From NCBI GenBank assembly GCA_026989215.1, contig JALSJV010000205.1, positions 1-58,831 on the forward strand: a stretch of 58,831 bases of DNA, given 5' to 3'. Below, one piece after another: positions 2,299 to 58,831 of the stretch (position 1 is its first letter; the number at the start of each line of letters is the position of its first letter). Below the pieces are notes generated by a model, which had not been told where the DNA came from, did no database searches, and saw only the letters and a list, made by a program, of their open reading frames with translations. The DNA is from Acidimicrobiia bacterium (GTDB lineage: Bacteria > Actinomycetota > Acidimicrobiia > Spongiisociales > ZC4RG35). The position numbers and the translations under genes were made by a program.

Positions 2299-4869
2299 TC
2301 ACACCACGGGCGTCGCAGCCCGCTCCACCGGTTCATGCCCCCGTCGTCGGTGGTACCGCTCCCAGAGCGCCAACAGCGACGGGAGGACCAACACGGCCCC
2401 GACCAGCGAGAGCCCGATGGCGTAGACCGTGACCTGCCCCATCTGCTGGAAGGGCTTGAGCGACGAGGTCATGAGGATCCCGAAACCCGCCATCGTCGTG
2501 AACGCCGAACCCGCCAGAGCACCGCCGGTGTGGCGGGTCGTGGAGCGGAGGGCATCCTCGAGGTCGTCGAAGCGGACCCGATCCTCTTCGAACCGCCGGG
2601 CGATGTGGATCGTGAACGGAACGCCGATCCCCACCGCCAGGGCCGCCAAGGTGGCGGTCACCGGCCCGAAGGGGATCCCCGTCAGCCACATGAGCCCGAA
2701 GGTCCACAACACCACCAGCGCCACCGGGATCATCGTCAGCACCCCGAGGAAGGGCCGGCGGTTCTCGAACCAGAAGTTGATCATCAGCACCAGCGTGGCG
2801 ACGAGGATCGTCACGAGCAGCGACGACACCTGCGAGCTGGAGAGGGCCTGCACGATCACCGCGGTGATGATGTTCTCCGACGTCGGTGTCACCGCCAGGC
2901 CTTCGTCGGCGAGGGGCTGGAACGCCACCAGCAGACCCTCACGGAGCTCGCCGGCGCCCCGCTCGCCCGCCTGGGTCTGGATGTCGAACAGCGCGGCGTC
3001 GAAGGTGCCGCCTTCGGTGCGGTGCAGCACGCGGGTCATCTGCTCGGGGGCCGCCTCGGCCGCCAACGACCAGAGGGCGGCGACGTCGGTGTCGGGAGCG
3101 ACGGTCAGATCCTCACGGAGACCGAGGGCGACTGCCTTCTGGGCGAAGGCCGGATCGGGGGGAGCGCCGGTCGGTCCGGGGCGGAGGAGCTGGGCGATCA
3201 CCGAGACCGGGGAGTCGGCCGAGGCCACCCGTCCGGTGGGCAGATCGAAGGTGACGACCGCGTCGACGTCCGCCGACCGACGCCACGCCGACACGAGGGC
3301 GTTGTGGACCTCCGGCGTGGCCAGGTCGGTCCCGGTCGGGGCCTCGACCAGGACCTGCGTCGTCTCCCCAAACCCTCCGCCGAACTCCTCCTGGAGGATC
3401 CGAAGGGTCTGCACCGCCGGGGCGTCCTCGGGGAGGAAGTCGGTCACCGAGAACTCGGTCTCCAACTGGCTGAGACCGAAGGCCCCGACCACGCCCAACA
3501 CCAGGGTCACGACCAAGGTGGGGACCGCCGCCCGCTCGGCCAGGATCGCCGCCTTCTCCATCACGGCGGGGAGGAGCCGCTCCCCGGTCTGGGCCATCCC
3601 GTCGGTCGGCAGCCGTCCGGCCCGCTCGGCGCGACGGTCGGCCAGGAGTCGGACCGCAGGGACGAAGGTGAGCATCAGCACGAAGGCGACGAGGATGCCG
3701 ACGGCGGCGAGGATCCCGAAGTCCTTGAGGGCGGGCACCGGGTTGAACACGTTGGTGAGGAACCCGACCACCGTGGTCACGGTCGCCAACGCCAGCGCCA
3801 CGCCCACCGTTCCGATGGCTCGACGCACCCCTTCGGCGACGGTGCGACCCTCACCCACCTCCTCCCGGTAACGGGCGATCAGGTGGATGGCGTAGTCGAC
3901 ACCGAGCCCGATCAGCAGGATCGGGACGATCTGGGTGGGTGGGCTGAAGGCGTCGATGATCCCGGCCTGCAACAGGAGATACCCGATCCCCTGCATGAAG
4001 GTGATGGCGAGGAGGATCGTCACCATGGTGAGCCCCATGTCGGCCAGGGTCCGACGAATCGACGCCCCCCGACCGGTGTTCCCCCGCGGTTTCATCCAGA
4101 ACACGAAGAGGAGGATCGCCACGATGATGAGGGCCGCCATGGCGAACAGGCGTCCGATCTCGGCGTTGAAATCGCCCTGGTCCTCGAAGAGGAGGGCGAA
4201 GGAGAAGGGGCGCAGCTCGACGCCCGGGACGTCGACCTCCCGCACCGCGTCGGCGATCCGCTTCTCCAACGCGAGCTGTGCCTCGAAGGGGTCGCCACCT
4301 CCGGTCTCGGTCTGGAGGAAGACGAGGATGAGCCCGCTCGGCGCCTCCGCCGCCTCCGGGTTCCCGCCTCGGCCGAGGAGCCCGGTGAGGAACCCGACCT
4401 GTTCCTGCGGGGCGCGGCTCAGCGCCATCGTGTAGGTCTGTTTCACCGCGGCGTCGTCGAGCTGGTCGGCGGGGATCCCCTGGAACGCCAGCGCTCGCTC
4501 CACCGGGGTCAGGTAGGAGACGATGGCCGGGCGCTCCGGCCGGGAGCTGAGGGCGTCTCCTGCCGCGTCCCGGATGGCCTCGGTCGCCAAGGTGACCGCC
4601 CGGAGCGCATCGGCGGTGATCACGTCTCCCGTGCCGGACCGCACGATCACCTGCAGCACGCTCTCCGCCGAGTCCGCGCCGAACAGCTCCCCGATCCGTT
4701 CGGCGGCGGCGATCTCGGGGTTGTCGGGAGCGAATCCTTCATTGCCCTGGGCCACCTCGATGTTCCGGGCGAGGGAGCCGAACACCCCGAACAGCACGAT
4801 CGTGACGAGGACGATCGGGATCGGGAAACGGTCGGTGGCGCGGGCGAGAAGACGGATGATGGTCTTCAC
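2299..4869 (-). CDS. MMPL/RND-superfamily membrane transporter
   Basis: ORF 2299..4908. It has two 6-TM bundles, each followed by a large soluble loop (MMPL architecture). I moved the start to GTG 4869 (VKTIIRLL...), which has GGAGGA 6 nt upstream. Confidence 0.9.
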   Translation of the reverse strand: MKTIIRLLARATDRFPIPIVLVTIVLFGVFGSLARNIEVAQGNEGFAPDNPEIAAAERIGELFGADSAESVLQVIVRSGTGDVITADALRAVTLATEAIRDAAGDALSSRPERPAIVSYLTPVERALAFQGIPADQLDDAAVKQTYTMALSRAPQEQVGFLTGLLGRGGNPEAAEAPSGLILVFLQTETGGGDPFEAQLALEKRIADAVREVDVPGVELRPFSFALLFEDQGDFNAEIGRLFAMAALIIVAILLFVFWMKPRGNTGRGASIRRTLADMGLTMVTILLAITFMQGIGYLLLQAGIIDAFSPPTQIVPILLIGLGVDYAIHLIARYREEVGEGRTVAEGVRRAIGTVGVALALATVTTVVGFLTNVFNPVPALKDFGILAAVGILVAFVLMLTFVPAVRLLADRRAERAGRLPTDGMAQTGERLLPAVMEKAAILAERAAVPTLVVTLVLGVVGAFGLSQLETEFSVTDFLPEDAPAVQTLRILQEEFGGGFGETTQVLVEAPTGTDLATPEVHNALVSAWRRSADVDAVVTFDLPTGRVASADSPVSVIAQLLRPGPTGAPPDPAFAQKAVALGLREDLTVAPDTDVAALWSLAAEAAPEQMTRVLHRTEGGTFDAALFDIQTQAGERGAGELREGLLVAFQPLADEGLAVTPTSENIITAVIVQALSSSQVSSLLVTILVATLVLMINFWFENRRPFLGVLTMIPVALVVLWTFGLMWLTGIPFGPVTATLAALAVGIGVPFTIHIARRFEEDRVRFDDLEDALRSTTRHTGGALAGSAFTTMAGFGILMTSSLKPFQQMGQVTVYAIGLSLVGAVLVLPSLLALWERYHRRRGHEPVERAATPVV

Positions 4870-4970: not shown

Positions 4971-6065
4971 TCAACGGTGGGCGAGCCGATCGAGCTCGGC
5001 GGCAAGCACCTCGAGGAATCGCCGGTTCTCCTCGTCCGAGCCCACCGTGACCCGGACCCACCCCTTCGACAGCCCACGGATCACCACCCCGTGCCCCAAG
5101 AAGGTGTCGGCCGTCAGGGCGGTGTCCGGGCCGGGACGGAAGAACACGAAGTTGGTCTGGCTCGGCACGTACGGCACGCCGAGCTCGGCCAGGCCCCGCT
5201 CCAGGAGCTCCCGCCCGGCGCGATTGAGCTGCCGCCGCTCCGCCACCCGCTCGGGATGCCGGAGCGCCTCCACCGCCGCGACCTGGGCGAGGGAGTTCAC
5301 CGAGAACGGCGCTTGGGGGCGTCGCAACTCGGCGACCGTCTCCGCCTGTCCGACGACGTACCCGATTCGAAGGCCCGCCAACCCGTAGATCTTCGAGAGG
5401 GTCCGGGCGACCACCAGATTGGGGTGGTCACCCACCAGCCCGATCGCCGAGTGATGCCCCTCGGCGGTGACGTACTCGTGATAGGCCTCGTCGACCACGA
5501 CCAGCACATCGGACGGCACCCGGTCGACGAAACGGGCCACCTGGTCGGGGGCGAGCAACGTCCCCGTCGGGTTGTTCGGATTGCACAGGTACACGATCGT
5601 CGTGTCGTCTCGCAGGGCCGCGAGCATCGCCTCGGTGTCGTGCACCATGGCGTCGTCGAGGGGAACCTCGATCGGCTCGGACATCGCCAGGGTCGTGGCC
5701 AGTCGGTAGATCACGAACGACGGCCACCCATAGAGAGCCGACGTGCCCGGGCCGCCCACGGCCAGGGCCATGATCCGAAGGAGTTCCGAGGAACCGGCCC
5801 CCACCCAGATCTGGTCCGGCTCCACACCGAGATGGGCGGCGATCGCCTCCCGGGCCTCCCGGGCGTCGTTGTCCGGGTACCGGTGGATCGTACCGGCGGC
5901 GGCGGCCACCGCTGCTTGAACCTCGGGGAACGGCGGCAGAGGGCATTCGTTCGACGCCAGCTTGATGACGTCGGAGACGTCGAGCCCCCACTCGCGGGCG
6001 ACGTCGACGATCGACTTCCCGGGCCGGTAGGGGGGGATCTCTCGGAGGTCGGGCCGGATACGCAT
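4971..6065 (-). CDS. hisC: histidinol-phosphate aminotransferase
   Basis: C-terminal 364 aa of ORF 4971..6977: MRIRPDLREIPPYRPG..., NPNNPTG, and the PLP-lysine motif LSKIYGLAGLRIGY. ATG 6065 is in frame. The rest of the 668-aa ORF overlaps the next gene. Confidence 0.9.
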   Translation of the reverse strand: MRIRPDLREIPPYRPGKSIVDVAREWGLDVSDVIKLASNECPLPPFPEVQAAVAAAAGTIHRYPDNDAREAREAIAAHLGVEPDQIWVGAGSSELLRIMALAVGGPGTSALYGWPSFVIYRLATTLAMSEPIEVPLDDAMVHDTEAMLAALRDDTTIVYLCNPNNPTGTLLAPDQVARFVDRVPSDVLVVVDEAYHEYVTAEGHHSAIGLVGDHPNLVVARTLSKIYGLAGLRIGYVVGQAETVAELRRPQAPFSVNSLAQVAAVEALRHPERVAERRQLNRAGRELLERGLAELGVPYVPSQTNFVFFRPGPDTALTADTFLGHGVVIRGLSKGWVRVTVGSDEENRRFLEVLAAELDRLAHR

Positions 6066-6822: not shown

Positions 6823-8904
6823 ATGAGCGAGACGCTGCAGATCCTCGACCCGCACGGCCGTCTCGTCGGAACCGACCCGGGTCTCGACACCGAGCAACTC
6901 CGCGAGATGTACCGGCTCATGGTCCTGGCCCGAACCTTCGACCGGCGGATGATGGCCCTCCAGCGCCAAGGTCGCATCGGAACCTATGCCCCCCTGGAGG
7001 GCCAAGAGGCCGTCCAGATCGGATCGGCCATGGCGCTGGCGCCCCACGACTTCTTCTTCCCTTCGTACCGTGAACACGGAACCCTGGTCGCCCGCGGCGT
7101 CCCGCTCTCGGTGCTGATCGCCTACTGGCGGGGCCTCCCCAACGCCGACTGGGACGTGGTCGGGTTCCGGGCGGGGATCACCACGATCCCCATCGCCAGC
7201 CAGCTCGCCCACGCGGTCGGATATTCGTATCTGTCGAAGCTGCGGGGCGACGGCGCCGTGACCATGGTCGCCTTCGGTGACGGGGCCACGTCGGAGACGG
7301 ACTTCCATTCCGGCATGAACTTCGCCGGGGTGTGGCGCACCCCGACCGTGTTCCTCTGCGCCAACAACGGCTACGCCATCTCGGTCCCGTACCACCGCCA
7401 GACCGCGTCCGAGACGATCGCTCAGAAGGCGGCGGCCTACGGCTTCGAAGGGGTCAGGGTCGACGGGATGGATCCCCTGGCGGTCTTCGCCGCCACCGAG
7501 GCCGCCACCGAACGCGCCCGCTCCGGAGAGGGACCGACCCTGATCGAGGCCATCACCTACCGATACGGGCCCCACGGGACCGCCGACGACCCCCATCGGT
7601 ATCGGGGCGAGGACGAGGAACGGAGGTGGCGGGAGAAGGATCCGATCGCCCGACTGGCGTCGTTCCTGCGTGAGCGCGGGGAGCTCGACGACGAGACGGA
7701 GCAGCAGATCGCCGACGAGGCGAGCCGCCAGATCGACGAGGCCGTCGCCGAGGTGGAGGCCATCCCCTTGCCCGGCCGTGACGAGGTCGTCCGCCACGCG
7801 TTCGCCCGGATCCCCCGGCTCGTCGTGGACCAACTCCACGCGTTCCAGCGGGCCGCCGGCGAGCCCGAGACCTCCTTCGGGCCCGACGAGGTGTGGGAGG
7901 TCGCCGACGACCCCACACCCGACGGCCCGACGGAGCGCTGGACGATGGCGGAGGCGATCAACGCCGCCCTCGACGAGGCGATGCAGGCGAATCCCGAGAC
8001 GATCGTCCTCGGCGAGGACGTCGGCCTCTCCGGCGGCGTCTTCCGGATCACCGAGCACCTCCAGGAACGGTACGGACCGGACCGGGTGATCGACACCCCG
8101 CTCAACGAGTCCGGGATCGTCGGCACCGCCATCGGCATGGCGATCGCCGGCGCCCGGCCGATCGCCGAGATCCAGTTCGACGGGTTCGTCTACCCGGCGT
8201 TCGACCAGATCGTGAGCCATCTCGGTCGGTATCGGTACCGGACCCGGGGCAACGTGTCGGTGCCGGTGGTGGTGCGGTTCCCCAATGGCGGCGGGATCGG
8301 CGCCCACGAGCACCACTGCGACTCTCCCGAGGCCTACTTCGTCCACGCCCCTGGGCTGGTCGTCATCTGCCCGTCGACCGCCTTCGACGCCAAGGGGCTC
8401 CTCGCCGCCGCCCTCGAAGGAGACGATCCGGTCATCTTCCTGGAGCCGAAGGTCCTCTACCGGGCCCAGCGGGAGGACGTCCCCGTCGGTCGGTACACGC
8501 TGCCGATCGGACGAGCCCGAATTCGGCGCCCGGGCGACGACGTCACCCTCGTCACCTACGGGGGGCTCGTACCGGTCTGCCTCGAAGCCGCCTCCACCCT
8601 CGCCGAGGAAGGGGTCGCGGTCGAGGTGATCGACCTGCGGACCCTGTTCCCCTGGGACCGGGAGACGGTCCTGGGGTCCGTCGAACGGACCGGACGCCTG
8701 GTCCTGGTCCAAGAGCCCCCCGCCAGTGCCGGGATGGCCGCCGAGGTCGCGGCCACGGTCGCCTCGGAGGCGATGTTCTCCCTCGAATCCCCGATCGTCA
8801 GGGTGACGGGGATGGACGTCCCGTGGCCTCAGTTCGCCATCGAGCGGCACGCCCTCGTCGACGTCCCCCAGATCATCGCCGGAATCCGGCAGGCGTTGGA
8901 GTGA
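6823..8904 (+). CDS. fused thiamine-diphosphate-dependent 2-oxoacid dehydrogenase E1 component (alpha + beta in one chain)
   Basis: ORF 6763..8904 from ATG 6823 (MSETLQILD...). The N-terminal half has E1-alpha motifs (YREHG, GDGATSETDFHSGMNFA). The C-terminal half has E1-beta motifs (RVIDTPLNESGIVGTAIGMA, EPKVLYR). Confidence 0.9.
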   Translation: MSETLQILDPHGRLVGTDPGLDTEQLREMYRLMVLARTFDRRMMALQRQGRIGTYAPLEGQEAVQIGSAMALAPHDFFFPSYREHGTLVARGVPLSVLIAYWRGLPNADWDVVGFRAGITTIPIASQLAHAVGYSYLSKLRGDGAVTMVAFGDGATSETDFHSGMNFAGVWRTPTVFLCANNGYAISVPYHRQTASETIAQKAAAYGFEGVRVDGMDPLAVFAATEAATERARSGEGPTLIEAITYRYGPHGTADDPHRYRGEDEERRWREKDPIARLASFLRERGELDDETEQQIADEASRQIDEAVAEVEAIPLPGRDEVVRHAFARIPRLVVDQLHAFQRAAGEPETSFGPDEVWEVADDPTPDGPTERWTMAEAINAALDEAMQANPETIVLGEDVGLSGGVFRITEHLQERYGPDRVIDTPLNESGIVGTAIGMAIAGARPIAEIQFDGFVYPAFDQIVSHLGRYRYRTRGNVSVPVVVRFPNGGGIGAHEHHCDSPEAYFVHAPGLVVICPSTAFDAKGLLAAALEGDDPVIFLEPKVLYRAQREDVPVGRYTLPIGRARIRRPGDDVTLVTYGGLVPVCLEAASTLAEEGVAVEVIDLRTLFPWDRETVLGSVERTGRLVLVQEPPASAGMAAEVAATVASEAMFSLESPIVRVTGMDVPWPQFAIERHALVDVPQIIAGIRQALE

Positions 8905-38292: not shown

Positions 38293-38997
38293 TCACCCGC
38301 CGATCGAAGCCTTCACGACGTCGAGGACGTCGCCGATCGCCTCCAGGGTCCTGCCCGACGCCCACACCAGCACGATCACGAGGAACAGGAGGCCGACGGC
38401 GGTGTAGAGCCACCGGAGGCGGTAGATGAGCCGCTGCTCGGGATCTTCGAGGTAGGAGACCTCCCCGGTCTGCCAGCCGACCCCGGCCGCGGTGGGCGTC
38501 GGCGGAGCGACGGCGGGGGTGGAACGAGAGGGCCGACGGAGACGCCGACGGCGTCGCCTCCCCGTCGCCTCCTCCTGGGATCCCGATTCCGGGACCGGGG
38601 AAAGGTCGGTGTCGGGTTCGGTCTCCTCGGTCTGCTCCGAGTCCGCCTCCGAAGGGCTCTCGGGACCCGACGGGGTCTCAAGGCCCGACGGGGCGATGGT
38701 CTGCAGCGACTGCTCGATGGTCGGCGGTGGGGCATCGGCGGGGGGTTCGAGACCGGTGGCTCGGAACAGCTCCGCTTCGTCGAGACCCAAGGCGGCGGCG
38801 ATGGCGGTGACGACGGCCGGGTCGCCGGGCAGGGACGAACCCCGTTCCCATGCCCGGACGGTGGAGGCGGAGCGGCCGACCAGCTCCCCGAGACGGGCCT
38901 GGGACATCCCGGCACGGTCCCGGCCCTCTTTGAGGAGTTGGGCGAAATCGGTGGTGTCCACACCCGCCAGGTTACCGGGACCTCGTCTCTGCACCAC
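38293..38997 (-). CDS. XRE-type helix-turn-helix protein with Pro/Glu-rich linker and C-terminal TM helix
   Basis: ORF 38293..38997. HTH MSQARLGELVGRSASTVRAWERG and TM helix LYTAVGLLFLVIVLVWA. The start could be GTG 38997 or GTG 38961. Confidence 0.7.
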   Translation of the reverse strand: MVQRRGPGNLAGVDTTDFAQLLKEGRDRAGMSQARLGELVGRSASTVRAWERGSSLPGDPAVVTAIAAALGLDEAELFRATGLEPPADAPPPTIEQSLQTIAPSGLETPSGPESPSEADSEQTEETEPDTDLSPVPESGSQEEATGRRRRRRLRRPSRSTPAVAPPTPTAAGVGWQTGEVSYLEDPEQRLIYRLRWLYTAVGLLFLVIVLVWASGRTLEAIGDVLDVVKASIGG

Positions 38998-39020
38998 GCG
39001 CCCCGGCTACCCTGGCCGGC

Positions 39021-39113
39021 GGAGGCGTCTGAGCGCCTGGTGGGCTCCGCGGTCTTCAAAACCGTTGAGGGGACGAGACGTCCCCTGGCGGGTTCGATTC
39101 CCGTCCGCCTCCG
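39021..39113 (+). tRNA. selC: tRNA-Sec (anticodon UCA)
   Basis: Manual fold. Acceptor GGAGGCG/CGCCTCC with discriminator G. Anticodon arm GCGGT-CUUCAAA-ACCGU (U33-UCA-A37). Long variable arm GGGGACG-AGA-CGUCCCC. T arm GGCGGG-UUCGAUU-CCCGUC. The acceptor plus T helix is 13 bp, as required for Sec tRNAs. Total length 93 nt. Confidence 0.8.
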
Positions 39114-41399
39114 CTACTGCCCGACCACCGCTTCGCCGGTGGTCGCCGACTTCCGTTGGGCGTCGGCGACGGCGATGGCGGTCATGTTGACGACGTCACC
39201 CACCTCGGCGTCCCGCTGGAGCACATGGACCGACTTGGCGAGACCGGTGAGGATCGGTCCGATCACCTCCGCCCGTCCCAGCCGGTTGAGGAGCTTGTAG
39301 GCGGCGTTGGCGGCGGTCAAGGTCGGAAACACCAACACGTTGGCCGCCTGATCGAGCGGCCCGTGGGGCCGACGGCGACGCAGCAGCTCGGTGACCACCG
39401 CCGTGTCCGCCTGCATCTCCCCGTCGACGGGGACATCGGGATGGGCCTCTCGGAAGATCTCCACCGCCCGCCGAACCCTGACCGGCTCGTCCCCGATCGC
39501 CGAGCCGAAATCCGAGTAGGAGATCATGGCGACCCGAGGCCGTCGGCCGAACTCCCGGGCCACCTCCACGGCCGCCCCCGCGATCTCCGCCAGCTCGGCG
39601 GCGGACGGCTCGATGTTCACCGCGCAGTCGGTGAAGAAGTAGGTGGAGCCGTGGATCACGACTGCATACACCGCGCTGGCGATCGTCCGGCCCTTCTCCA
39701 GCTTGATGATCTGCAGCGCCGGGCGGATCGTCTCCGGGTAGAAGGTGGTGAGGCCCCCGAGGACGGCGTCGGCATCGCCCTGCTCCACCATCAACGCCGC
39801 GAAGACGTTGGCGTCGAAGACCGCCTTCTGGGCGTCGTCGAGGTCCATGCCCTTGTCCCGCCGCAGCTCGTGGAGCCGCTGCGCGTACCGGGATCGGCGC
39901 TCGTCCTCCGTGACGGGATCGATCACCTCGATCCCGTCGAGGGGGATCCGCAGCTCGTGCGAGAGCTCCCTGATCACCCCCGAGTCGCCGAGCAGCACCG
40001 GAGCGGCGATCCCCTCGTCGGCGACCCGGCGGGCCGCCCTGATGATCCGCAGGTCGCCGCCGTGGGGATACACGACGGTCATCGGGCGCCGTTTCGCCTG
40101 GACGGTCATCGTCTGGATCAGGCTGTAGGTCGCCTGGAACCGTGCCTGGAGCTGCTCCCGATACGAGTCGATGTCGTCGATCGGCGACCGGGCCAGCCCC
40201 TCCTCGCACGCCGCCATCGCCACCGCCGGCGCCACCGTCCACAGGACCCGAGGGTCGAAGGGTTTGGGGATGAGGTAGTCGGGACCGAAGGTCAGCCGGT
40301 CCAACTCGTACGCCTTCAGCACCGACTCGGGGACCGGCTGGCGGGCCAGCTCGGCGAGCGCCCGGGCCGCCGCCACCTTCATCCCTTCGGAGACGCCGGT
40401 GGCGCGCACGTCGAGGGCGCCCCGGAAGATGAAGGGGAAACCCAGGACGTTGTTGACCTGGTTCGGGTAGTCGCTCCGACCCGTGGCCACGATCACGTCG
40501 GGACGGGCCGCCTTGGCGTCTTCGTAGGTGATCTCCGGGTCGGGGTTGGCGAGGGCGAAGACGATCGGGTCGTCGGCCATCGAGCGCACCATGTCGGGTG
40601 TCACCGCCCCGGCGACCGAGACCCCGACGAACGCATCCGCCCCTTCGAGCGCCTCGGCGAGGGTCCGACGGTCGGTGTCCCTGGCGAAGGAGGCCTTGAC
40701 GTCGCTGAGGTCCTCCCGGTCGGTGGTGATCACCCCCCGCGAGTCCACCATCAGGATGTTCTCCGGCTTGACCCCCAGCTCGATGAAGAACCGTGCACAG
40801 GCGATCCCGGCGGCACCGGCTCCGCTGAACACCACCGTCGTGTCCTCGATCCGGCGACCCGTCAGCTCCAAGGCGTTGAGGAAGGCGGCGCCGCTGATGA
40901 TCGCGGTGCCGTGTTGATCGTCGTGGAAGACGGGGATGTCGAGCCGCTCGCGCAGGGTCTGTTCGATGTGGAAACAGTCGGGAGCCTTGATGTCCTCCAG
41001 GTTGATCCCGCCGACCGTCGGCTCCAGCAGCTCGCAGAATCTGATCACGTCTTCGGGATCCTGGGAGGCGACCTCGAGGTCGAACACGTCGATGTCGGCG
41101 AACTTCTTGAAGAGGACGGCCTTGCCCTCCATCACCGGCTTGCCCGCCAGCGGACCAATGTTGCCCAGACCCAGCACGGCGGTCCCGTTGGAGACCACCG
41201 CCACGAGGTTCCCCCGGTTCGTGTACCGGAAGGCGGCGTCGGCGTCCTCGGCGATCACCCGGCAGGGCTCGGCGACGCCCGGCGTGTACGCCAGGCTCAG
41301 ATCCGCCTGGGTGGCCGTCGGTTTGGTCGGCCGGATCTCGATCTTCCCGGGACGGCCACGTTCGTGGTAGTCGAGAGCCTCGGAGAAACGATCGGTCAT
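39114..41399 (-). CDS. maeB: NADP-dependent malic enzyme with C-terminal phosphotransacetylase-like domain
   Basis: ORF 39114..41420 from ATG 41399 ([21 protein letters not shown]). Malic enzyme motifs ([32 protein letters not shown]) followed by a PTA-like domain. Confidence 0.95.
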
Positions 41400-41472
41400 G
41401 TCGGAGTTCCTGGATGGCACGCCCGAACCCTACTCGGCCCCCCTTCGGTTCGGTCCCCGATACGCTCAGAGG

Positions 41473-58484: not shown

Positions 58485-58514
58485 AGTATACGGATGGCCT
58501 CGATCCTCTGTAAA
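58485..58514 (-). promoter_or_regulatory. candidate sigma-70-type promoter for tRNA-Trp-secE-nusG
   Basis: Minus strand reads TTTACA-18 nt-TATACT, ending 25 nt upstream of the tRNA 5' end, in a local AT-rich island. Confidence 0.5.
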
Positions 58515-58576
58515 TCGTAACCGACCCGCGGCCCTCGTCATTTCCCCCGGCCCCGGTCGGCTTCTACGGGCTGGAG

Positions 58577-58831
58577 TCAGCCGGCGGCGAGACGGCGGCG
58601 GAGCGAGAGGGCGACGACGACCGACGCCGCCACCACCACCACCGGCACCACCGGCACCCGACGACGCGGGGCCGTCACCCCGGAGGAACGCTCGATCCCG
58701 GCCGCGAAATCCCGCGGTGCCGTGTAGCGGACGGCGCCGAGGGCGGCGAAGCCCCGGCGAAGGGCACGACCCCGGGCGACCTCGGCCTGGCAGCGCAGGC
58801 ACCCCGAGACGTGTCGAGCCACCGGCGCGAC
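58577..58831 (-). CDS. putative zf-HC2 anti-sigma-like membrane protein; N-terminus may lie outside the window
   Basis: ORF 58577..58822, with the frame open to the window edge. HVSGCLRC (Hx3Cx2C) motif and a C-terminal TM helix VPVVPVVVVAASVVVAL. Confidence 0.4.
   Translation of the reverse strand, partial: VAPVARHVSGCLRCQAEVARGRALRRGFAALGAVRYTAPRDFAAGIERSSGVTAPRRRVPVVPVVVVAASVVVALSLRRRLAAG

What the first reader, a model, noticed from the sequence alone, without database searches (positions are those of the whole stretch)
39021..39113. tRNA-Sec (selC) present, but no sel genes or UGA-containing candidate ORF visible in the window
Seen: a 93-nt tRNA with a UCA anticodon in a canonical 7-nt loop, a 7-bp-stem variable arm and a 13-bp acceptor/T coaxial helix. 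These are the hallmarks of selenocysteine tRNA. It lies 24 nt from the divergent HTH gene start, and its 3' end directly abuts the maeB stop codon (39114).

Established knowledge: selC implies SelA/SelB/SelD and at least one selenoprotein with an in-frame UGA plus SECIS. The trait is patchy in Actinomycetota.

No gap in this window is large enough to hide a split ORF. The redox genes here all encode Cys rather than an in-frame TGA at the active site: the CGLC thioredoxin-like protein, arsC, the DUF255 protein and the rhodanese domain.
Basis: partly seen in the sequence, partly recalled or inferred. Interest (0 to 1): 0.6.

Follow-up and report, generated by a model that had tools for sequence, protein, structure and literature searches.

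The report
Ordinary selenocysteine tRNA gene (selC)
This is a genuine selenocysteine tRNA gene in an uncultured hydrothermal-vent actinobacterium; its partner genes (selA, selB, selD) and at least eight selenoprotein genes lie on other contigs of the same genome, so the system is complete and ordinary.

Summary
Window 39021-39113 (+) is a tRNA-Sec by ARAGORN and by Rfam RF01852 (73.2 bits, gathering score 47).

The open question, whether the rest of the system exists, is answered by the whole genome (window = contig C205 of a 2.98 Mb, 98% complete MAG).
- selA and selB overlap on contig C315.
- selD on C185 is itself a selenoprotein (GAG-U-ACK).
- Seven further genes carry one in-frame TGA inside a known selenoprotein family: FdhA-type, Prx-like (WUPYC), TlpA-like (WUGIC), two AhpD_rel_CFYUT, UGSC and PrdB/GrdB-like.
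- The TGA is conserved in orthologues across the order.
- The window itself holds no UGA read-through gene.

About 51 of 61 genomes of the order and 94 of 151 sampled Actinomycetota carry tRNA-Sec. Three relatives that lack it also lack selD and FdhA.

The non-Watson-Crick eighth acceptor pair and a -10 box 13 nt upstream are both common in the phylum. The divergent XRE-type neighbour is a core gene that persists in Sec-minus relatives.

Verdict: a canonical, functional selC, dispersed from its partners as in E. coli. Low interest. The scan has logged more than 600 Sec-related findings in other genomes.

The parts
39021..39113 (+). selC, the tRNA-Sec(UCA) gene: G1 to discriminator G73, no encoded CCA
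   Evidence: ARAGORN. Rfam RF01852 at 73.2 bits, full length 1-91. Covariation in all five helices across 27 relatives.
39008..39013 (+). -10-like hexamer TACCCT (TAnnnT), 13 to 8 nt upstream of the mature 5' end; the likely selC promoter element
   Evidence: A TAnnnT at -12 to -16, mostly -13, is present in 29 of 30 relatives although the rest of the upstream sequence is unconserved. The E. coli-type consensus scan finds nothing here. The promoter role is an inference.
38293..38997 (-). Divergent neighbour gene (probable true start at 38961): XRE-type HTH, disordered linker and C-terminal membrane helix. Not part of the Sec system.
   Evidence: Pfam HTH_31 and HTH_3. Sequence and orthologue alignment. 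Present in 58 of 61 relatives, including Sec-minus genomes.
39114..41420 (-). Convergent neighbour maeB (malic enzyme plus PTA_PTB domain); its stop codon abuts the tRNA 3' end
   Evidence: Pfam malic, Malic_M and PTA_PTB. ORF list.

Best explanation
The feature is the single, functional selC gene of a complete bacterial selenocysteine-insertion system.

Inferred from the canonical pathway, not tested here:
- The tRNA is transcribed on its own, probably from the TACCCT -10 box 7 nt before its 5' end.
- It gets CCA added and is charged with serine by SerRS.
- SelA converts the serine to selenocysteine, using selenophosphate made by SelD.
- SelB delivers it to in-frame UGA codons that are followed by a hairpin.

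Shown here:
- The gene is an intact tRNA-Sec.
- selA, selB and selD are present.
- At least eight genes need UGA read as Sec.
- That UGA is conserved across the order.

selC simply lies apart from its partner genes, as it does in E. coli.
For: tRNA identity. Compensatory changes support every helix in 27 relatives: 14 pairs change on both sides, matched by 0 of 500 shuffles.

Machinery:
- selA C315:2376-3461, TIGR00474 at 438 bits.
- selB C315:3506-5284, overlapping the selA end.
- selD C185 with one TGA at the active site, HGAG-U-ACK.
- No SelU, so SelD serves Sec.

Selenoprotein genes, each with a family domain spanning the TGA:
- FdhA-type, C171 TGA at 4559, CNRT-U-HAPS.
- Prx-like, C13 TGA at 5873.
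- TlpA-like, C296 TGA at 7841; U aligns with Cys in three paralogues.
- AhpD_rel_CFYUT, C61 and C82, at 262 and 267 bits against a cutoff of 175.
- UGSC, C230, at 148 bits against a cutoff of 125.
- PrdB/GrdB-like, C216.

Conservation of the in-frame TGA in relatives:
- selD: 29 of 37.
- CFYUT: all hits above the cutoff.
- FdhA: about 20 relatives.
- PrdB-like: 11 of 11.

G008, G015 and G017 lack tRNA-Sec, selD and FdhA together.
Against: - No expression or selenium-incorporation data exist. Only DNA metagenome runs (hydrothermal vent) hold this sequence.
- Hairpins follow each UGA, but hairpins are common at 70% GC, so SECIS function is not demonstrated.
- The eighth acceptor pair is not Watson-Crick, which differs from the E. 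coli model tRNA.
- The genome is a 340-contig MAG, so linkage of the contigs to one organism rests on binning (98% complete, 1% contamination).
Confidence: 0.93

Rival explanations
1. selC is a relic: a decaying tRNA gene left over after the Sec trait was lost.
For: Nothing in the window itself uses Sec. The eighth acceptor layer is unpaired.
Against: - The Rfam match is full length and well above threshold.
- The acceptor and T arms are identical to those of dozens of relatives that keep Sec.
- selA, selB, selD and at least eight UGA-containing genes are intact.
- Relatives that really lost the trait have lost selC cleanly, with no remnant beside the conserved neighbour gene.
Confidence: 0.02
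2. The divergent membrane-anchored XRE-type HTH protein is a dedicated regulator of selC. The two genes would form a conserved regulator-target pair with back-to-back promoters.
For: - Orthologues lie 13-146 nt upstream of selC, divergently, in about 19-25 of 30 relatives, although they are only 25-48% identical. maeB stays adjacent in only about 7.
- The pairing is absent from 30 selC loci of other actinobacterial families.
Against: - The protein is found in 58 of 61 relatives. It is full length in G008, G015 and G017, which lack tRNA-Sec and selD.
- No tRNA-Sec remnant lies next to it in those genomes.
- It is therefore a core gene whose function does not depend on Sec. Inherited synteny explains the adjacency.
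Confidence: 0.06
3. The tRNA is a selC-like UGA suppressor charged with another amino acid, such as the selC* tRNA-Cys type, rather than a true tRNA-Sec.
For: It has a non-canonical eighth acceptor layer. Such variant tRNAs are known (PMC7609411, PMC5389517).
Against: - Those variants have 12-bp 8/4 or 9/3 branches, whereas this one keeps 13 layers.
- It has G73, a 6-bp D stem with a 4-nt loop and a long variable arm.
- SelA and SelB are encoded.
- The UGA positions are the classical Sec positions of known selenoprotein families.
Confidence: 0.01

Closest known systems
E. coli selC / selAB / selD system (tRNA-Sec, Rfam RF01852)
   Same: - UCA anticodon, G73, 13-layer acceptor/T branch with a G.U at the base of a 5-bp T stem, 6-bp D stem with a 4-nt loop, and a long variable arm.
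- selA-selB form an operon, and selC is unlinked from it.
- An FdhA-type selenoprotein has the ...U-H-x-P-S motif and a GGUC-looped hairpin after the UGA.
   Different: - The eighth acceptor layer is U.C instead of C-G.
- The D stem has a bulged G.
- The anticodon stem is 5 bp plus a C.U layer.
- CCA is not encoded.
- SelD is itself a selenoprotein.
- The selenoproteome is larger and dominated by thiol-oxidoreductase families.
Sec system of Actinomarina (Acidimicrobiia), bioRxiv 10.64898/2026.04.03.716425
   Same: - Same class.
- selC, selA, selB and selD are universal in the group.
- About five selenoproteins per genome.
- A Sec-containing SelD.
- No SelU.
   Different: - A different order, with a 3 Mb, 70% GC genome rather than a 1.1 Mb one.
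- selC here is not in a hypervariable region. It sits in a conserved HTH-selC(-maeB) context.
Bacterial tRNA-Sec with a 12-bp acceptor/T branch (7/5 'Cloacimonetes type', 8/4; Secmarker paper PMC5330540, PMC5389517)
   Same: Only seven Watson-Crick acceptor pairs.
   Different: Here there are eight nucleotides between the T stem and G73, so the branch still has 13 layers. It is a non-Watson-Crick eighth pair (or a 7/6 split), not a 12-bp branch. The same configuration occurs in many Actinomycetota families.

Membership tests
Bacterial tRNA-Sec (selC, RF01852) | Covariance-model score above the curated threshold | tested here: met
   73.2 bits against a gathering score of 47, model positions 1-91. 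ARAGORN calls SeC.
Bacterial tRNA-Sec (selC, RF01852) | UCA anticodon in a 7-nt loop and G73 discriminator | tested here: met
   Loop CUUCAAA; G at 39113. Both are invariant in 27 relatives.
Bacterial tRNA-Sec (selC, RF01852) | 13-bp acceptor plus T branch in the 8/5 arrangement | tested here: inconclusive
   13 layers are present. The eighth layer is U.C or A.C in 27/27 relatives. An invariant G-C could instead give a 7/6 split, but there is no covariation to decide between the two. Other Actinomycetota have G.G or G.A at this layer.
Bacterial tRNA-Sec (selC, RF01852) | 6-bp D stem with a 4-nt D loop (SelA identity element) and a long variable arm | tested here: met
   Six pairs with one bulged base, two of them covarying; loop UGGU. 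The 7-bp variable stem has six covarying pairs.
Bacterial tRNA-Sec (selC, RF01852) | Serylation by SerRS, conversion by SelA and binding by SelB | not testable with these tools
   This needs biochemistry. Only the genes for SelA and SelB are shown.
Bacterial Sec-decoding trait | SelA, SelB and SelD encoded in the same genome | tested here: met
   TIGR00474 at 438 bits, TIGR00475 at 327 bits and TIGR00476 at 394 bits, all above their cutoffs.
Bacterial Sec-decoding trait | Genes with an in-frame UGA at the Sec position of known selenoprotein families, conserved in relatives | tested here: met
   Eight genes. The TGA is conserved in orthologues.
Bacterial Sec-decoding trait | SECIS hairpin just downstream of each UGA | tested here: inconclusive
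   A stable hairpin lies within about 10-20 nt of each of the five UGAs examined. The FdhA one has a GGUC loop. No control for the 70% GC background was run.

The most novel reading that the evidence does not exclude
In this order, and in many other Actinomycetota, selC carries its -10 box at a fixed 12-14 nt before the mature 5' G. Transcription would then start at or within 1 nt of the mature end. That would make bacterial tRNA-Sec here effectively leaderless, as eukaryotic tRNA-Sec is. It might spare RNase P from having to measure a 13-layer branch whose eighth pair is open.

My evidence does not exclude this, but it weakens its specificity. About half of the other tRNA genes of this genome also have a TAnnnT at -13 to -20, and three share -13.
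Probability: 0.2. Interest if true: 0.4.

Novelty: already known. Interest (0 to 1): 0.1.

Why it matters
It matters little beyond annotation. It shows that this hydrothermal-vent Acidimicrobiia genome reads some UGA codons as selenocysteine. At least eight genes (SelD, FdhA-type, Prx-like, TlpA-like, two AhpD-related, UGSC and PrdB/GrdB-like) will therefore be split or truncated by standard gene callers and should be annotated with Sec. It also shows that Sec use is the rule rather than the exception in this order, which extends the recent report for Actinomarina.

Tried and rejected
- A GC3-only screen for TGA read-through gave 1842 candidates and was useless. It was replaced by a codon log-odds model, a within-genome paralogue test and context curation.
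- Several candidates proved to be adjacent genes with an SD sequence plus a start codon, or domains that do not span the TGA: C315:7436, C242, C92, C261, C339, C140 and both window candidates.
- I looked for an Fe4S4 domain upstream of the FdhA gene in all three frames and found none. Relatives show that this is the normal architecture, not decay.
- The search for related loci with maeB returned only distant phyla and gave no taxonomy or synteny.
- The sigma-70 consensus and terminator scan found nothing around selC.
- The idea that the neighbouring HTH protein is a selC regulator was tested by co-occurrence and largely rejected.
- The idea that a 7/6 fold or the -13 promoter spacing is special to this gene was rejected by the phylum and genome controls.
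- No RNA runs hold the sequence.

Full report
**1. Observation.**
ARAGORN finds a tRNA-SeC(tca) at 39021-39114. Rfam's tRNA-Sec model RF01852 matches 39021-39112 over its whole length at 73.2 bits (gathering score 47, E 4e-13). From the sequence the tRNA has:
- G1 and a G discriminator at 39113, with no encoded CCA;
- the loop CUUCAAA with anticodon UCA;
- a 6-bp D stem with one bulged G and a 4-nt loop;
- a 5-bp anticodon stem;
- a variable arm with a 7-8 bp stem;
- a 5-bp T stem that begins with G.U.

The convergent gene 39114-41420 (-) is a malic enzyme with a PTA_PTB domain, and its stop codon directly abuts the discriminator. The divergent gene 38293-38997 (-) is an XRE-type HTH protein.

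Two details need correcting.
- The eighth layer of the 13-layer acceptor/T stack is a U.C non-pair.
- The spacer to the HTH gene is 23 nt only for the longest ORF. The orthologue alignment favours the GTG at 38961, which gives 59 nt as in the same-genus genome.

**2. The rest of the system.**
The window is the whole of contig C205 of a 2.98 Mb, 340-contig, 69.7% GC genome rated 98% complete and 1% contaminated. The DNA is held almost entirely by hydrothermal-vent metagenome runs.
- selA (C315:2376-3461) and selB (C315:3506-5284) overlap by a few bases. They score as equivalogs: TIGR00474 at 438 bits against a cutoff of 268, and TIGR00475 at 327 against 242. There is also a SelB winged-helix match.
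- selD lies on C185 (TIGR00476, 394 bits) and has one in-frame TGA at the active site, reading HGAG-U-ACKLGPSEL.
- No tRNA 2-selenouridine synthase was found, so SelD serves Sec.
- Only one tRNA-Sec is present. The other weak RF01852 hits in G000 score about 45-48 bits on C282, where ARAGORN places serine tRNAs.

**3. Selenoprotein genes.**
I combined three approaches: family searches that report stops inside matches, a codon-usage model plus a within-genome paralogue test, and manual curation of contexts. Beyond SelD this gave seven genes. In each one a single TGA lies inside a domain of a known selenoprotein family.

| Gene | Contig, TGA position | Motif or family score |
|---|---|---|
| FdhA-type | C171, 4559 | CNRT-U-HAPS; TIGR01591 657 bits from profile position 52 |
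| Prx-like | C13, 5873 | GDW-U-PYC |
| TlpA/thioredoxin-like | C296, 7841 | AEW-U-GIC; U aligns with Cys in three paralogues |
| AhpD_rel_CFYUT (two copies) | C61, 1992 and C82, 13485 | NF041238 at 262 and 267 bits, cutoff 175 |
| UGSC family | C230, 8616 | NF041046 148 bits, cutoff 125; PF24696 |
| PrdB/GrdB-like | C216, 665 | APA-U-PDCC; TIGR04483 98 bits, below cutoff |

Each of the five UGAs examined is followed within about 10-20 nt by a stable hairpin. The FdhA one contains a GGUC-looped stem like the E. coli fdhF SECIS. At 70% GC this is only supportive.

The window itself has no such gene. The only two candidates with coding signal on both sides are the rplJ/rplL pair and hflX plus an unknown gene.

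**4. Evolutionary support.**
In a sample of the same order, 51 of 61 genomes have a tRNA-Sec of at least 67 bits. The in-frame TGA is conserved in orthologues:
- selD is present in 37 of 41 genomes, 29 of them with the TGA;
- every above-cutoff CFYUT homologue has exactly one TGA;
- the Sec-FdhA is present with one TGA, and the same short N-terminus, in about 20 relatives;
- all 11 PrdB/GrdB-like homologues, down to 32% identity, keep one TGA.

G008, G015 and G017 lack tRNA-Sec, selD and FdhA together, which is the pattern expected of clean loss of the trait. At phylum level, 94 of 151 sampled genomes have tRNA-Sec.

These tallies include unpublished genomes: G050 among the 61 relatives, and G061, G106, G146 and G177 among the 151. 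G050 is also one of the 30 synteny and promoter loci. G061, G106 and G177 are three of the 30 phylum-level loci.

**5. The fold.**
On an alignment of 27 relatives, all five helices are supported by compensatory changes: 14 pairs change on both sides, matched by 0 of 500 shuffles, and slid controls collapse. The canonical eighth acceptor pair is a non-pair in 27/27 (U.C or A.C). A G just 5' of the T stem could pair with that C in 27/27, giving a 7/6 split, but both bases are invariant, so nothing decides between the two.

The published deviations are 12-bp branches (7/5, 8/4). This one keeps 13 layers. It is not special to this gene:
- the identical acceptor/T configuration occurs in seven other actinobacterial families;
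- two further families have G.G or G.A at the same layer;
- only three families have a Watson-Crick eighth pair.

I read it as the phylum-typical version of the 8/5 fold.

**6. Local arrangement.**
A TAnnnT hexamer (TACCCT, 39008-39013) lies 13 to 8 nt before G1. A hexamer lies at -12 to -16, mostly -13, in 29 of 30 relatives, although the rest of the upstream sequence is unconserved. It lies at -12 to -14 in about 20 of 30 selC genes of other actinobacterial families. With the usual spacing, the transcript would start at or within 1 nt of the mature end.

The control shows that about half of all tRNA genes in this genome have such a hexamer at -13 to -20, and three share -13. Very short leaders are therefore a general habit here. 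No RNA data are available to test it.

**7. The neighbour gene.**
The HTH protein has four parts: an XRE-type HTH, a hypervariable acidic and Pro-rich linker, an Arg-rich patch, and an invariant C-terminal module (SY.ED...R..YR.R...T, membrane helix, W). Orthologues lie divergently 13-146 nt from selC in most relatives of the order. They are absent beside selC in 30 loci of other families.

This suggested a dedicated regulator. However, the profile finds the protein in 58 of 61 relatives. That includes full-length copies in the Sec-minus genomes G008, G015 and G017, with no tRNA-Sec remnant beside it there. It is a core gene, and the adjacency is best explained by inherited synteny.

**8. Verdict.**
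This is a canonical, intact selC that belongs to a complete Sec-decoding system with a moderately rich selenoproteome. The gene is unlinked from selAB and selD, as in E. coli.

Universal Sec use with a Sec-containing SelD has already been reported for another Acidimicrobiia order (bioRxiv 10.64898/2026.04.03.716425). This scan has logged more than 600 Sec-related findings in other genomes.

The finding is correct and ordinary. Its practical value is as a flag that at least eight genes of this genome need Sec-aware annotation.

Noticed in passing
window 38293-38997 (-); orthologues in L020-L048 (alignment A2): A family of tail-anchored XRE-type HTH proteins: HTH, hypervariable acidic/Pro linker, Arg patch, and an invariant SY.ED..R..YR.R..T-TM-W module. 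Pfam and NCBIfam have no match beyond the HTH. It is present in 58 of 61 genomes of the order, and its function is unknown.
   Followed up: partly
G000 contig C171:4235-6202 (locus L004:1405-3372): The Sec-containing FdhA-type enzyme starts at profile position about 50 of TIGR01591, so it lacks the N-terminal Fe4S4 domain. About 20 relatives share the same architecture and the same TGA, so this is a lineage feature and not a broken gene.
   Followed up: partly
G000 contig C216:158-1045 (locus L132): A distant PrdB/GrdB-like protein with the motif APA-U-PDCC. All 11 homologues in relatives keep one in-frame TGA. It falls below the NCBIfam cutoffs, so it may be an uncatalogued subfamily of selenoprotein B-like proteins.
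   Followed up: partly
window 39008-39013; L020-L049 and L137-L166 upstream of tRNA-Sec: A TAnnnT -10-like hexamer lies 12-14 nt before the mature 5' end of tRNA-Sec in most Actinomycetota sampled, and at -13 to -20 for about half of all tRNA genes of this genome. This implies tRNA leaders of 0-7 nt.
   Followed up: partly
tRNA-Sec genes in L137-L166: The eighth acceptor layer of tRNA-Sec is non-Watson-Crick (U.C, A.C, G.G or G.A) in most actinobacterial families sampled. It is Watson-Crick only in families f31, f33 and f38.
   Followed up: partly
L025, L028, L032, L036, L040, L045 (between the HTH gene and selC): In several relatives a small ORF (about 118-153 aa, with the motif ATHATFES..GDYRASIPL) lies between the HTH gene and selC. 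It was not characterised.
   Followed up: no
window 58513-58831 versus G000 contig C238:1-676: The end of the window and the start of contig C238 encode 97% identical peptides over 93 aa. This may be an assembly overlap or a strain variant at the contig edge near tRNA-Trp.
   Followed up: no
relatives G037, G038, G043, G012, G004 and others: Many relatives carry short (about 190 aa) AhpD-like genes with one in-frame TGA. These are distinct from the CFYUT family. The G000 counterpart on C240 has no TGA.
   Followed up: no
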